A stretch of 46,614 nt of DNA from a virus (Duplodnaviria > Heunggongvirae > Uroviricota > Caudoviricetes), in IMG/VR virus record IMGVR_UViG_2713896798_000017; one strand, 5' to 3'. Below, piece by piece: positions 12,001 to 15,000 of this stretch; position 1 is the stretch's first letter, and each line of letters opens with the position of its first letter. Made by a program: the position numbers.

Positions 12001-15000
12001 GTTAGCTAGATTGATAAAGTGATTACATATTTTCTGTTATATGCTGAAATGAATAATGCTATTCCAGAGTGCAGCAGAGAAAGTCTCCTGATGATTGAGC
12101 TCTGGAAATTGTACAATAGAAAAATTACTGTATTTTTCTGTCAAAATATTTCTCAAAACAGATTCCGCTTTGATGGCTTCAGGATATAAAGATGCGGAGT
12201 AATCAAGGCTAAGATTTCCGTTAAGCAAGCATATACTTTTAGTGTGCTTTGATTCTGATATATCATCTTTAATTATCTTGATGATTCTTTCATTCTGCCA
12301 TAGAAGTGATGGTGCAGATATATAATAATAGTTAAAGCATGAATTATTTTTTAAGCAATCAAGCACAAAAATAGCACCTAGCGAGTGCCCCCATATACCG
12401 ATTCTGGAACTGTTCGGAGCAATAGTACTAACCCATGGCATGATCTGAGTTAGTAATAATTCTCGGAAAGACTGGCTTCCTCCACCAGTAAAGTAGATCC
12501 ATGCTGGTTTAGAGTTATCAACAATAGCATTTTCACCATCAGGAGTATAATCGTAAGCACGGCGATGAATGCTAAGGTTATTCCAAGATTCATAACCAAG
12601 TGTAACTAACACTGGTGGATTGGGTAGTGCATCAATAACAGGCAGAATATCAGAAATGTAATTGTTGGCACTATTCCCATCAAGTATATAAAGAGTTGCA
12701 TTATTTTTTTTAATGTTTTTTGGAGTAAAAATACATATTTTATATTTGGTGTCATGGTTAATTGAGTTAAATATGCGTGTTTGACAATGAATGTCCATAT
12801 GTTTAGTCATGCGTTCTCCCCATGAGCATTAAAGGATGCTTAAGATATGCTATGTCACTGATAAAAAATTTGTTGTGTGTGTTTAGTTATTTTATCTACC
12901 TCCATTATGATTTAAGACTGATATATGTTATCAGCAAAGGTACATCGTTATTATTTTACCTGTCAATACATTTGATATTGATTATCGTTTACATCGCTTG
13001 CTTAGGAAATTGAAGGCAGGTAACTATCATGTCAATGAACTAACCCACAGTCTAACGTACTTCTTTCCCCAATCACCAACAACCAAATTCCTGTTATCAC
13101 CACTGGGATTTTGGCGCAACTTCATGGTGCAGAGGTAAATAGCATCAAGCAAAATCTCTTTTTCCGTTGTTGTCCTTATGGGACGTCTGTCTTTCTGACC
13201 GATTTCATATTGGCGAGGTAATGGGAAGTTAAGTAGAATAGCTGCGGGTGCTTGAGGCTATCTGCCTCGGGCATGAACACCAACGGCAGATAGAGAAAAG
13301 CCCCAGTTAACATTACGCGTCCTGCAAGACGCTTAACATTAATCTGAGGCTCAATCTATGAACGGCAAATCTAGGTTAGCCTCTTACGTGCCGAAAGGCA
13401 AGGAGAAGCAGGCTATGAAGCAGCAAAAGGCGATGTTAATCGCCCTGATCGTCATCTGTTTAACCGTCATAGTGACGGCACTGGTAACGAGGAAAGACCT
13501 CTGCGAGGTACGAGTCCGAACCGGCCAGACGGAGGTCGCTGTCTTCACAGCTTACGAACCTGAGGAGTAAGAGACCTGGCGGGGGAGAAATCCCTCGCCA
13601 CCTCTGATGAATCAGGCATCCTCAACGCACCCGCACTTAACCCGCTTCGGCGGGTTTTGTTTTTTCCTGGCATTCTGGTTTACAATTCGCACGCCAGCCT
13701 GAACAACTGGCACCTGCTGCGCCAGCAGAGACAACCGATGGCGCACGATACCAAATTATACAATTCTGATGATTCTGCCGTCTTTGCCAGCAGGCGCGGA
13801 CGGTGTTTTCACGCATTCAAATCTGACTGGTACCAGCATCCCCCATGCACTGAAGAACAGGCCGAATGGCTCATTCAGTGTTACCGCAGGCGCGGATGCG
13901 AGGTTAAAAAAGCCCTTAGCCTCGACTACCGTCACTGGATAATCTCCGTCAGGCTCCCTTACTCCGAACGGCCACCGCGTCCGTCCCGCACATTCCAGCA
14001 ACGGATCTGGAGGTAATGTGCGGGTATTACTTCGACCTGTTCTGGTACCGGAACTCGGTCTGGTTATCGTTAAGCCAGGCCGTGAATCCATGCGGGTATT
14101 TCATGGCGGCAGGGTGCTGGTGGAGTCTGAACCGAAAAGCATGCGTAATCTGCCGTCCGGGGTCGTTCCTGCCGTTCGCCAGCCGCTGGCGGAAGATAAA
14201 TCATTACTGCCATTTTTCAGCAATGAGCGTGTGATTCGTGCTGCTGGTGGCGCTGGTGCACTGTCTGACTGGTTATTACGTCACGTTAAATCCTGCCAGT
14301 GGCCTCATGGTGATTATCATCACAGCGAAACTGTCATACATCGTTACGGTACCGGCGCGATGGTGTTGTGCTGGCACTGCGACAACCAGCTGCGCGACCA
14401 GACATCCGAATCACTTGAGCAACTTGCTCAACAAAACCTGTCAGCATGGATGATTGACGTCATCCGCCACGCAATGAATGGCATACAGGAACGGGAATTA
14501 TCGCTGGCTGAATTATCCTGGTGGGCAGTCTGCAATCAGGTGGTGGACGCATTACCTGAGGCAGTATCGCGTCGTTCTCTGGGATTACCGGCGGAAAAAA
14601 TCCGCTCCGTATACCGTGAAAGCGACATCATACCGGGAGAACAGACCGCCACCAGCATACTGAAGCAGCGCACAAAAAATATTGCGCTACCGCCTCACAC
14701 CCACCAGCAACAGAACCCACCACAGGAAAAGACGGTGGTCAGCATTGCCGTTGATCCGGAGTCTCCGGAATCCTTCATGAAACGACCTAAACGTCGCCGC
14801 TGGGTAAATGAGAAATACACACGCTGGGTAAAGACACAGCCGTGTGCGTGTTGTGGTAAGCCAGCGGACGATCCTCATCATCTGATTGGTCATGGTCAGG
14901 GTGGAATGGGAACAAAATCCCACGATATTTTCACGCTACCGCTGTGTCGGGAGCATCACAACGAGCTTCATGCGGATCCGCTGGCGTTCGAAGAAAAGCA

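What the first reader, a model, noticed from the sequence alone, without database searches (positions are those of the whole stretch)
13290..13670. hok/mok type I toxin locus in the nin region, with expected antisense Sok RNA not annotated
Hok is near-canonical and mok shares its frame and stop. A Sok-like antisense RNA should be encoded on the minus strand overlapping the mok start region (about 13290-13370), but I could not delimit its promoter and terminator. The downstream hairpin plus T-run fits the hok mRNA 3' fold-back/terminator region.
Basis: partly seen in the sequence, partly recalled or inferred. Interest (0 to 1): 0.45.

Follow-up and report, generated by a model that had tools for sequence, protein, structure and literature searches.

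The report
Intact prophage hok/mok/sok toxin-antitoxin locus
This is an ordinary, complete copy of the well-known hok/sok killer module (a small membrane toxin held in check by a short antisense RNA) sitting in a lambda-like E. coli prophage, and the "missing" antisense RNA gene can now be placed precisely on the opposite strand.

Summary
Window 13210-13666 holds a complete hok/mok/sok type I toxin-antitoxin locus in the nin position of a lambdoid E. coli prophage. The same 501 bases occur at 100% identity in many STEC chromosomes, where PGAP annotates only "hokD".

The Sok antisense RNA can now be delimited on the minus strand:
- -35 TTGCCT at 13401-13396
- 17-nt spacer
- -10 TAACCT at 13378-13373
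- start at 13366
- 14-nt single-stranded tail, then a hairpin at 13352-13298
- U-tract ending at 13296-13290

This is the positional orthologue of the annotated 71-nt SokW of phages 933W and VT2-Sakai (93% identical locus, identical promoter). SokW's antitoxin activity and -10 box have been tested experimentally.

The Rfam "sok" model does hit (107 bits), but on the hok strand, because it models the hok mRNA leader. All the classical hok mRNA elements are present and fold as expected.

Novelty is low, because this is a known system. One side observation may be worth following up. The first ~6 nt of Sok (mok codons 2-3) vary far more among near-identical loci than anything else in the locus. 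This could be a specificity determinant between co-resident copies.

The parts
13210..13239 (+). hok mRNA promoter: -35 TTGGCG (13210-13215), 18-nt spacer, -10 TAGAAT (13234-13239)
   Evidence: It is the only sigma-70-like site found in 13000-13900, matching 9 of 12 positions. The -10 and the start region are conserved in K-12 hokC and in a Klebsiella plasmid hok.
13246..13666 (+). Full-length hok mRNA (about 421 nt)
   Evidence: The Rfam RF01794 model starts at 13246 and the terminator T-run ends at about 13666. The minimum-energy fold is -175.6 kcal/mol, z = -8.0 against shuffles. Both ends are inferred by homology and were not measured.
13246..13257 (+). tac (translational activator) element, GGGTGCTTGAGG
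   Evidence: It pairs with fbi (13620-13632) in the full-length fold. After 3' truncation it pairs with ucb (13298-13304). It is invariant against 933W and VT2-Sakai.
13298..13304 (+). ucb (upstream complementary box / anti-SD), AAGCCCC
   Evidence: In the full-length fold its 3' part (GCCCC, 13300-13304) forms the base of the hairpin that sequesters the mok SD. In the truncated fold it pairs with tac.
13346..13349 (+). mok Shine-Dalgarno, GAGG
   Evidence: It lies 8 nt upstream of ATG 13358 and inside the Sok-complementary region. It is conserved in all variant classes.
13358..13570 (+). mok reading frame (70 codons), in frame with hok and sharing its stop
   Evidence: Listed as an ORF. The arrangement matches the annotated mokW and mokC. 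Codons 2-5 are hypervariable among relatives.
13346..13383 (+). Sok-target hairpin of the processed mRNA: mok SD GAGGCU (13346-13351) paired with dcb AGCCUC (13378-13383), apical loop about 13359-13371
   Evidence: Folding 13340-13390 gives -14.7 kcal/mol, z = -3.5. The same hairpin appears in the minimum-energy fold of the 3'-truncated mRNA.
13373..13401 (-). sok promoter: -35 TTGCCT (13401-13396), 17-nt spacer, -10 TAACCT (13378-13373)
   Evidence: It is identical to the sokW promoter. Mutating the sokW -10 abolished antitoxin activity (PMC8621323 primers YO-421/422). The antisense hexamer at this position reads TAnnnT in most of 84 hok loci across Enterobacterales, although it was outside the search pattern. 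TANNNT is the Sok -10 motif used by T1TAdb. The simple consensus scan does not detect this promoter because it matches only 7 of 12 positions.
13296..13366 (-). Sok antisense RNA (about 71 nt; the 3' end could lie anywhere in 13296-13290): 5' tail 13366-13353, hairpin 13352-13298, U-tract 13299-13296
   Evidence: It is the positional orthologue of the annotated sokW. The K-12 sokC 5' end maps to 13366 and its 3' end to 13290. The fold is -30 kcal/mol, z = -5.6. There are compensatory changes in 5 of 20 pairs. The hairpin is more stable on this strand in 44 of 44 unique family members.
13415..13570 (+). hok toxin gene (51 aa); SD AAGGAG at 13400-13405
   Evidence: Pfam PF01848, 80.7 bits. PGAP calls the identical CDS hokD. 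It differs from K-12 HokD by one codon.
13578..13599 (+). 3'-UTR stem-loop, GGCGGGGGAG-AAAU-CCCUCGCC; probably the protective 3' end of the processed mRNA
   Evidence: It is present in both predicted folds. The role is inferred by analogy with the last stem-loop of truncated R1 hok mRNA (PMC9841398).
13620..13632 (+). fbi (fold-back inhibitory) element, CCTCAACGCACCC
   Evidence: It pairs with tac in the full-length minimum-energy fold. It is conserved in 933W and in K-12 hokD.
13639..13666 (+). Intrinsic terminator of hok mRNA: stem-loop 13639-13656 plus T-run
   Evidence: The terminator scan finds 7 pairs, 5 of them G-C, followed by TTGTTTTTTC.

Best explanation
Window 13210-13666 is an intact, probably functional hok/mok/sok type I toxin-antitoxin module carried as an accessory gene in the nin position of a lambdoid E. 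coli prophage.

**Proposed mechanism.** The sequence elements are shown here. The behaviour is inferred from the R1 paradigm and from the 93%-identical hokW-sokW.
1. A stable hok mRNA of about 421 nt starts at about 13246. It is made translationally inert because its 5' end (tac) pairs with fbi near the 3' end, and because the mok SD is sequestered in a hairpin with ucb.
2. Slow 3' trimming removes fbi. Then tac pairs with ucb, and the mok SD moves into a new hairpin with dcb. The apical loop of this hairpin presents the mok start region.
3. The unstable ~71-nt Sok RNA is transcribed from the opposite strand (TTGCCT-17-TAACCT, start 13366). Its single-stranded 5' tail contacts that loop and then forms a full duplex over the mok SD and AUG.
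4. The duplex blocks mok translation, and with it the coupled hok translation, and marks the RNA for RNase III cleavage.
5. When Sok synthesis stops (loss of the element, transcription shut-off or prophage induction), Sok decays. The mRNA pool matures and is translated, and Hok depolarises the inner membrane.

**Likely role in a prophage.** Stabilising the prophage and/or helping lysis and phage release after induction, as shown for hokW-sokW.
For: **Presence of the parts.**

**Homology.**
- 100% identity to many STEC chromosomes; 4738 of 5426 complete E. coli genomes hold a relative.
- About 93% identity to the annotated mokW/hokW/sokW locus, with an identical sok promoter and a Sok hairpin that differs at one loop base.

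**Experiments on the orthologue (PMC8621323).**
- HokW is toxic.
- sokW expressed from its own promoter neutralises it.
- Mutating the TAACCT -10 abolishes protection.
- The antitoxin effect depends on RNase III and Hfq.
- sokW is detected by northern blot and disappears after mitomycin C.
- Deletion halves phage release.

**Folds.**
- tac-fbi closure in the full-length RNA.
- A switch to tac-ucb plus SD-dcb when the 3' end is removed, as described for R1 (PMC9841398).
- Sok folds as tail + hairpin + U-tract.

**Comparative evidence.**
- A TAnnnT antisense -10 and the Sok architecture are conserved in most of 84 loci from many genera.
- Compensatory changes occur in the hairpin.
- The hairpin is always better formed on the Sok strand, with 120 G-U pairs against 5.
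Against: - There is no transcript data for this copy. The Sok 5' and 3' ends rest on annotations of orthologues, and those annotations may themselves be homology-based.
- The sok promoter matches the sigma-70 consensus at only 7 of 12 positions and is missed by the simple scan.
- Chromosomal hok loci tested in the past did not mediate post-segregational killing (cited in bioRxiv 10.1101/2025.08.07.668861).
- The biological role in a prophage is extrapolated from hokW-sokW, which sits at a different place in its phage, has a different Sok tail (6 of 14 nt differ) and a different 3' terminator.
Confidence: 0.9

Rival explanations
1. The locus is a decayed, silent relic like most hok loci of E. 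coli K-12. The ORFs look intact, but the module no longer kills or is no longer regulated.
For: - K-12 hokD, whose protein differs from this Hok by one residue, has lost everything upstream of the hok SD, including tac, ucb, mok and sok.
- Chromosomal hokA, hokB and hokC loci failed to mediate post-segregational killing in earlier work (cited).
Against: - Every regulatory element is present and folds as expected.
- The transcription unit apart from one short patch is nearly invariant across 68 unique relatives: pi is 0.002-0.06 outside the Sok region and terminator (Sok hairpin 0.10, terminator 0.18).
- The 93%-identical hokW-sokW is experimentally active.
Confidence: 0.06
2. Taking the Rfam hit literally, the Sok gene is a 175-nt RNA on the + strand at 13246-13420.
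For: RF01794 'sok antitoxin' hits the + strand at 107 bits.
Against: - In K-12 and in 933W the same model hits the hok/mok strand, while the annotated sokC and sokW lie on the opposite strand.
- The model consensus begins with the hok mRNA 5' end and ends in the hok SD and AUG.
- The model therefore represents the sense leader, which contains the Sok-complementary stretch.
Confidence: 0.01
3. The module's main job is defence against other phages (abortive infection), not prophage maintenance or lysis assistance.
For: - R1 hok/sok excludes phage T4 when on a high-copy plasmid (Pecota and Wood 1996, cited).
- hok genes are about four-fold enriched in prophages, where defence genes are often carried.
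Against: - The same survey found no enrichment of hok near defence systems.
- The only prophage copy studied showed a role in the phage's own release.
- Nothing in the sequence distinguishes these roles.
Confidence: 0.2
4. Sok is not made from this copy because the promoter is too weak, and hok is kept silent by mRNA folding alone or by Sok from other copies in the genome.
For: - The promoter matches only 7 of 12 consensus positions and is not detected by the scan.
- Genomes carry up to 10 related copies.
Against: - The promoter is identical to that of sokW, which is seen on northern blots and needs this -10 box.
- The Sok tail of this copy differs from every other class seen by at least 4 of 14 nt, so trans-repression by another copy would be handicapped.
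- The five chromosomal Sok RNAs of K-12 did not repress R1 hok (PMC9841398).
Confidence: 0.04

Closest known systems
hokW/mokW/sokW of Stx2 phages 933W and VT2-Sakai (Sp5)
   Same: - About 93% nucleotide identity over the locus.
- Identical tac, sok promoter, hok SD and fbi; the Sok hairpin differs at one loop base.
- mok is in frame with hok.
- Sok is 71 nt at the same aligned position.
- Experimentally a type I TA system.
   Different: - Sok 5' tail and mok codons 2-5 differ: GCCGUUCAUAGAUU here against GUUCAGCAUGGAUU, 6 of 14 nt.
- One loop base of the Sok hairpin differs.
- Hok differs in its C-terminal residues.
- The sequence after fbi is unrelated, so the terminator is different.
- hokW lies near one end of the prophage next to a ygiW-like gene, not in the nin region.
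E. coli K-12 hokD (relF) in cryptic prophage Qin
   Same: - Hok protein identical except for one residue.
- The same 3' UTR and fbi.
- Also followed by a DUF968 gene (ydfU).
- The prophage also carries dicB/DicF and relBE.
   Different: - K-12 hokD is homologous only from the hok SD onward. It has no hok promoter, tac, ucb, mok or sok, and sits directly behind relE.
- The window holds the complete form.
E. coli K-12 hokC/mokC/sokC (gef)
   Same: - Same layout, with mok in frame and sharing the stop.
- The annotated sokC 5' end aligns to window 13366.
- The leader matches the same Rfam model.
   Different: - About 75% identity.
- The Sok hairpin is shorter (sokC is 59 nt).
- One extra base between the sok -10 and -35 region.
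- Core-chromosome location next to IS186.
hok/sok (parB) of plasmid R1, the prototype
   Same: - All named elements (tac, ucb, mok SD, dcb, fbi, Sok tail + hairpin) are present.
- The same predicted switch occurs on 3' truncation (PMC9841398).
- R1-type loci were recovered by the same conserved core pattern (L189 and L204).
   Different: - Hok is only about 44% identical. That figure is the one reported for HokW against R1 Hok.
- R1-type mok is in the +1 frame relative to hok, not in frame.
- The R1 Sok hairpin is shorter.
- R1 hok/sok has a plasmid-stabilising context.

Membership tests
[quoted passage not shown] | Small (~50 aa) hydrophobic toxin matching the Hok/Gef family | tested here: met
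   Pfam PF01848 at 80.7 bits against a cutoff of 22. NCBIfam Hok-family models match only below their cutoffs, 48 bits against 73.
[quoted passage not shown] | hok mRNA leader with the family's sequence and structure | tested here: met
   RF01794 full-length match at 107.1 bits against a gathering score of 59. The model's orientation was verified on annotated loci.
[quoted passage not shown] | Leader ORF (mok) with its own SD, overlapping hok, whose start lies in the Sok target | tested here: met
   ATG at 13358 with GAGG 8 nt upstream; 70 codons, overlapping hok. The arrangement matches the annotated mokW and mokC. Translational coupling itself was not tested.
[quoted passage not shown] | Long-range 5'-3' pairing (tac-fbi) that locks the full-length mRNA | tested here: met
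   The predicted minimum-energy and centroid folds both pair 13246-13257 with 13620-13632, z = -8.0. This is an in silico result only.
[quoted passage not shown] | Alternative tac-ucb and mok SD-dcb pairings after 3' processing | tested here: met
   The minimum-energy fold of 13246-13604 shows both pairings, and the hairpin also forms on its own. The centroid differs from the minimum-energy fold, so the prediction is not robust. The actual processing site is unknown.
[quoted passage not shown] | Short cis-antisense RNA fully inside the mRNA leader, upstream of hok, with a TANNNT -10 | tested here: met
   TTGCCT-17-TAACCT with a start at 13366. It is the positional orthologue of the annotated sokW and sokC. 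TAnnnT is conserved across the family, and the motif and layout match the T1TAdb description.
[quoted passage not shown] | Sok structure: single-stranded 5' tail plus terminator hairpin | tested here: met
   Fold z = -5.6. Compensatory changes in 5 of 20 pairs. Strand asymmetry in 44 of 44 unique hairpins.
[quoted passage not shown] | Sok is actually transcribed, is unstable, and its duplex with hok mRNA is cut by RNase III | not testable with these tools
   This is known only for the 93%-identical hokW-sokW and for R1.
[quoted passage not shown] | Hok kills or arrests cells, and Sok neutralises it | not testable with these tools
   Shown for HokW/sokW but not for this copy.
K-12-type hokD (relF) | hok placed directly behind relBE without its own leader, mok or sok | tested here: not met
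   The window has a complete leader. In the matching record relBE lies about 7 kb away on the other strand. The PGAP name 'HokD' reflects protein identity only.
hokW-sokW (Sp5/933W) orthologue | Same genomic position and same Sok recognition tail | tested here: not met
   The prophage position is different and 6 of 14 tail nucleotides differ. It is better described as a close paralogue.

The most novel reading that the evidence does not exclude
**Proposal.** The extreme 5' end of Sok (nt 2-6, equal to mok codons 2-3 and the apical loop of the target hairpin) may be a rapidly diversifying 'address' that keeps the many hok/sok copies in one genome from silencing each other. Each prophage or plasmid would then keep its own private addiction or lysis switch, much as loop changes in plasmid antisense RNAs create new incompatibility groups.

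**Evidence.**
- Among 68 unique near-identical loci, diversity in the 14-nt tail is pi = 0.34. It is 0.015 at hok third-codon positions and 0.04 in the sok promoter.
- There are 12 tail classes, and the window's tail differs from every other class by at least 4 of 14 nt.
- Co-resident or tandem copies had distinct tails in 11 of 12 groups.
- K-12's own Sok RNAs do not repress R1 hok.

**Caveats.**
- The co-residency result is not significant on its own.
- Relaxed constraint plus patchy recombination could give a similar picture.
- The point may already be made in older literature that I could not search.
Probability: 0.4. Interest if true: 0.45.

Novelty: already known. Interest (0 to 1): 0.18.

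Why it matters
On its own this changes little, because it is a textbook type I toxin-antitoxin module in a common STEC prophage.

It has two practical uses:
- Automated annotation of this very common sequence lists only "hokD". It omits mok and Sok, and anyone reading the Rfam "sok" hit literally would place the antitoxin on the wrong strand and at the wrong length.
- The locus is the complete form of the truncated K-12 hokD.

If the hypervariable Sok tail really sets specificity, it would explain how up to ten hok/sok copies coexist in one genome. It would also give a simple, testable rule for cross-talk between them.

Tried and rejected
- **Promoter and terminator scan.** It finds the hok promoter and hok terminator but not the sok promoter (7 of 12 matches, below its threshold) or the Sok terminator (long imperfect stem). 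I did not treat this as evidence against them, because the experimentally required sokW -10 is the same hexamer.
- **Literal reading of the Rfam strand.** Rejected.
- **NCBIfam.** Hok-family models match only below their cutoffs, which is uninformative for a 51-aa protein that passes Pfam.
- **Tandem array in Dryocola (L123).** I hoped differences would fall only in the Sok tail. Three contiguous variable columns do fall on Sok nt 2-4, but about 16 other variable columns are scattered through the unit, and the first unit's flank confounds the alignment. This is only weakly supportive.
- **Co-residency of tail classes.** Tails were distinct in 11 of 12 groups, but with about 12 classes this is close to what chance would give, and one pair shares a tail. 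Inconclusive.
- **Family-wide alignment of Sok for covariation.** Hairpin length varies too much between subfamilies, so I restricted the formal count to the 19 long-hairpin sequences and used per-sequence folding for the rest.
- **Literature search for prior description of Sok tail hypervariability or paralogue cross-talk.** Nothing was found in the open-access library. The key older papers (Pedersen and Gerdes 1999; Franch et al. 1997 and 1999) are not held, so absence is not established.
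Full report
**1. What is in the sequence.**

Between 13200 and 13700 the + strand carries a 51-codon ORF (13415-13570). A 70-codon ORF starts at ATG 13358 in the same frame and ends at the same stop. The short protein matches Pfam Hok/Gef (PF01848) at 80.7 bits against a cutoff of 22.

A sigma-70-like promoter (TTGGCG-18-TAGAAT, 13210-13239) is the only one found in 13000-13900. A clean intrinsic terminator (stem-loop 13639-13656 plus TTGTTTTTTC) closes the unit. Rfam's RF01794 model matches 13246-13420 over its full length at 107 bits against a gathering score of 59.

**2. Where it comes from.**

The 501 bases 13200-13700 are 100% identical to many Shiga-toxigenic E. coli chromosomes. 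Relatives occur in 4738 of 5426 complete E. coli genomes, with a median of 2 and a maximum of 10 copies per genome.

In the matching record the surrounding genes run as follows: integrase, exonuclease, dicB, ydfA/B, relBE, repressor/cro-like genes, replication genes, a reverse-strand alpha/beta hydrolase, this locus, a small ORF, DUF968, RusA, Q antiterminator. PGAP annotates only a "hokD" CDS here, with no mok and no Sok.

**3. Delimiting Sok.**

The locus is about 93% identical to mokW/hokW/sokW of phages 933W and VT2-Sakai, whose records annotate a 71-nt SokW antisense RNA.
- In the alignment, sokW maps to window 13366 (5' end) through 13296 (3' end) on the minus strand.
- The independently annotated sokC of E. 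coli K-12 has its 5' end at the same aligned base, 13366. Its 3' end maps to 13290.

Upstream on the minus strand lie TTGCCT (13401-13396), a 17-nt spacer and TAACCT (13378-13373), leaving 6 nt before a G at 13366. This stretch is identical base for base to the sokW promoter.

In Takada et al. 2021 (PMC8621323), the "promoter-less" sokW mutant was made with primers that change this hexamer from TAACCT to GAGCCG, and the mutant lost protection against HokW. The same paper detected sokW by northern blot and found that its antitoxin effect needs RNase III and Hfq.

The simple consensus scan misses this promoter because it matches only 7 of 12 positions. Given the experiment, that is not evidence against it.

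**4. Structure of the antisense RNA.**

The 71-nt candidate folds into a 14-nt unpaired 5' tail, a 55-nt hairpin (13352-13298) and a U-tract. The energy is -30 kcal/mol, z = -5.6 against shuffles.

I scanned species-representative genomes with the conserved core GCCTCTTA-N11-13-CAAGGAGAAG. This gave 84 loci with a Hok-like ORF from Escherichia, Shigella, Kluyvera, Klebsiella, Citrobacter, Enterobacter, Serratia, Pantoea, Erwinia, Atlantibacter and other genera.
- The antisense hexamer just outside the pattern reads TAnnnT in most of them. T1TAdb uses that motif for Sok promoters.
- Nearly all show the same architecture: a purine at the predicted +1, a tail of about 11-16 nt, a GCCUC...GGGGC-based hairpin with very different inner stems, then a U-rich tail.
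- In the 19 long-hairpin sequences, 5 of 20 predicted pairs show compensatory double changes.

A hairpin on one strand is mirrored on the other, so I used G-U pairs to tell the strands apart. In all 44 unique hairpins the Sok-strand version is more stable (mean -19.7 against -10.6 kcal/mol). The Sok strand has 120 G-U pairs and the mRNA strand has 5. The sequences are related, so this is not 44 independent trials, but the direction is uniform across subfamilies with unrelated inner stems.

**5. The Rfam hit needs care.**

RF01794 is called "sok antitoxin", but it hits the + strand here. In K-12 it hits the hokC/mokC strand, while sokC is annotated on the other strand. In 933W it hits the mokW/hokW strand, while sokW is on the other. 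Its consensus starts with the hok mRNA 5' end and finishes in the hok SD and AUG.

The model therefore detects the hok mRNA leader, which contains the Sok-complementary segment. The hit proves the locus type. It does not give Sok's strand or ends.

**6. The hok mRNA elements.**

The full-length RNA (13246-13666) is predicted to pair its 5' end, GGGUGCUUGAGG (tac), with CCUCAACGCACCC at 13620-13632 (fbi). This holds in both the minimum-energy and the centroid structure, z = -8.0. In that form the mok SD (GAGG, 13346-13349) sits in the base of a long hairpin opposite the GCCCC of the ucb (13300-13304).

Removing the 3' end (13246-13604) switches the minimum-energy fold. Now tac pairs with AAGCCCC (the ucb box, 13298-13304), and the mok SD (GAGGCU) pairs with AGCCUC (dcb, 13378-13383). 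This forms a hairpin whose apical loop (about 13359-13371) holds the first mok codons.

This is the rearrangement described for R1 hok mRNA (PMC9841398). These are predictions. The centroid of the truncated RNA differs from its minimum-energy fold, and the real processing site is unknown.

**7. Relation to known loci.**

- **K-12 hokD:** it encodes a protein one residue different from this Hok, but it is homologous only from the hok SD onward. Upstream of that is the end of relE. The window therefore holds the complete form of what K-12 keeps as a truncated gene.
- **hokW-sokW:** compared with it, the promoter, hok SD and fbi are identical and the hairpin differs at one loop base. The Sok tail and mok codons 2-5 differ, the sequence after fbi is unrelated, and the position in the prophage is different.
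- **mok frame:** mok is in frame with hok here and in mokC and mokW. In R1-type loci mok is in the +1 frame. Both arrangements are common in the family, at 28 and 27 of 84 loci.

**8. Mechanism and role.**

The most likely mechanism is the classical one:
- a stable, self-locked mRNA is produced;
- slow 3' trimming unlocks it;
- Sok's 5' tail docks on the target loop;
- the Sok-mRNA duplex covers the mok SD and AUG;
- mok translation, and so the coupled hok translation, is blocked and RNase III cleaves the duplex;
- when Sok synthesis stops, Hok is made.

The sequence elements and predicted folds are shown here. Toxicity, antitoxin action and nuclease dependence are shown only for the 93%-identical orthologue. 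The rest is inferred from the R1 paradigm.

The role in this prophage could be maintenance, help with lysis and release as for Sp5, or exclusion of other phages. The sequence cannot decide among these.

One untested speculation follows from the position. The locus lies in the nin region in the same orientation as the rightward early genes, so induced read-through transcription would run head-on into the sok promoter. That could contribute to the loss of Sok after induction.

**9. A side observation.**

Among 68 unique close relatives from viral contigs, the transcription unit is nearly invariant except for 13351-13372 and, less markedly, the terminator (pi = 0.18). Pairwise diversity by region:

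| Region | pi |
|---|---|
| Sok 14-nt tail | 0.34 |
| Spacer between the sok -10 and +1 | 0.24 |
| Sok hairpin | 0.10 |
| tac | 0.05 |
| sok promoter | 0.04 |
| hok third-codon positions | 0.015 |

There are 12 tail classes, varying mostly at Sok nt 2-6, and the window's tail differs from every other class by at least 4 of 14 nt. Co-resident or tandem copies had distinct tails in 11 of 12 groups, which is close to what chance would give.

This fits a role of the tail and loop as a specificity determinant between paralogues. Relaxed constraint with patchy recombination is not excluded. A recent large survey of Hok states that it did not analyse Sok or Mok. I found no description of this in the searchable literature, but the key older papers are not held.

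**10. Verdict.**

The Sok gene is now delimited. The system is already known, and interest is low apart from the possible specificity code in the Sok tail.

Noticed in passing
window 13351-13372 (Sok nt 1-16 and the spacer to its -10; mok codons 2-5): This is a hypervariable patch in an otherwise nearly invariant locus. Diversity in the Sok tail is pi = 0.34, against 0.015 at hok third-codon positions. There are 12 tail classes among 68 unique relatives. It may be a specificity determinant between hok/sok paralogues.
   Followed up: partly
window 13246-13420, + strand; also L004 502-654 and L001 1520-1694: Rfam RF01794 'sok antitoxin' is built in the sense orientation of hok mRNA. Its hits fall on the strand opposite the annotated sokC and sokW and are about 2.5 times longer than Sok. 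Automated annotation from this model would put the antitoxin on the wrong strand.
   Followed up: yes
window about 11700-13200: An AT-rich island (29-38% GC against about 50-55% on either side) lies just upstream of the hok locus. It carries a reverse-strand 257-aa alpha/beta-hydrolase or esterase-like gene (12037-12810; weak Pfam Esterase hit). It looks like a separately acquired accessory gene.
   Followed up: partly
window 4435-4486 (-), 19482-19728 (+), 19808-19998 (+): Other RNA genes in the window are DicF sRNA (77 bits), three tRNA genes in a row, and sRNA STnc100 (138 bits).
   Followed up: no
window about 6160-6640, minus strand (mapped by offset from record L003, not checked base by base): A relBE type II toxin-antitoxin pair sits next to the repressor region of the same prophage, so the element carries at least two TA modules. 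In K-12 Qin relBE is fused directly to a leaderless hokD.
   Followed up: partly
L123 (Dryocola clanedunensis) 670-2383; also L149, L131, L186, L115: These loci hold tandem arrays of complete hok/sok units. L123 has four copies at 561-bp spacing, and their Sok RNAs differ at nt 2-4 (GUGU, GUUC, GUUG, GCUU).
   Followed up: partly
L112, L119, L120, L137 (Erwinia, Enterobacter and Atlantibacter loci): In these hok loci the Sok hairpin region carries a shared insert of about 25 nt (…GUACUGACCCCAA(U/A)AAGUUGGACAG…) that destroys the usual hairpin. It may be a small mobile repeat inserted into sok.
   Followed up: no
window 13633-13666 compared with L001 (933W) downstream of fbi: Homology between this locus and hokW ends a few bases after fbi. 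The window has a strong terminator there, whereas 933W and VT2-Sakai have unrelated sequence running into a ygiW-like gene. The two mRNAs must therefore end differently.
   Followed up: no
window 13171-13195, + strand: A terminator-like hairpin (TGTCCTTATGGGACG followed by TCTGTCTTTC) lies just upstream of the hok promoter. It could insulate the locus from upstream transcription in the lysogen.
   Followed up: no
hit H41, NZ_CP124741.1: A 286,775-bp record labelled as a plasmid of E. coli O157:H7 EDL933 carries this prophage locus at 99.8% identity. It may be a mis-assigned chromosomal segment.
   Followed up: no
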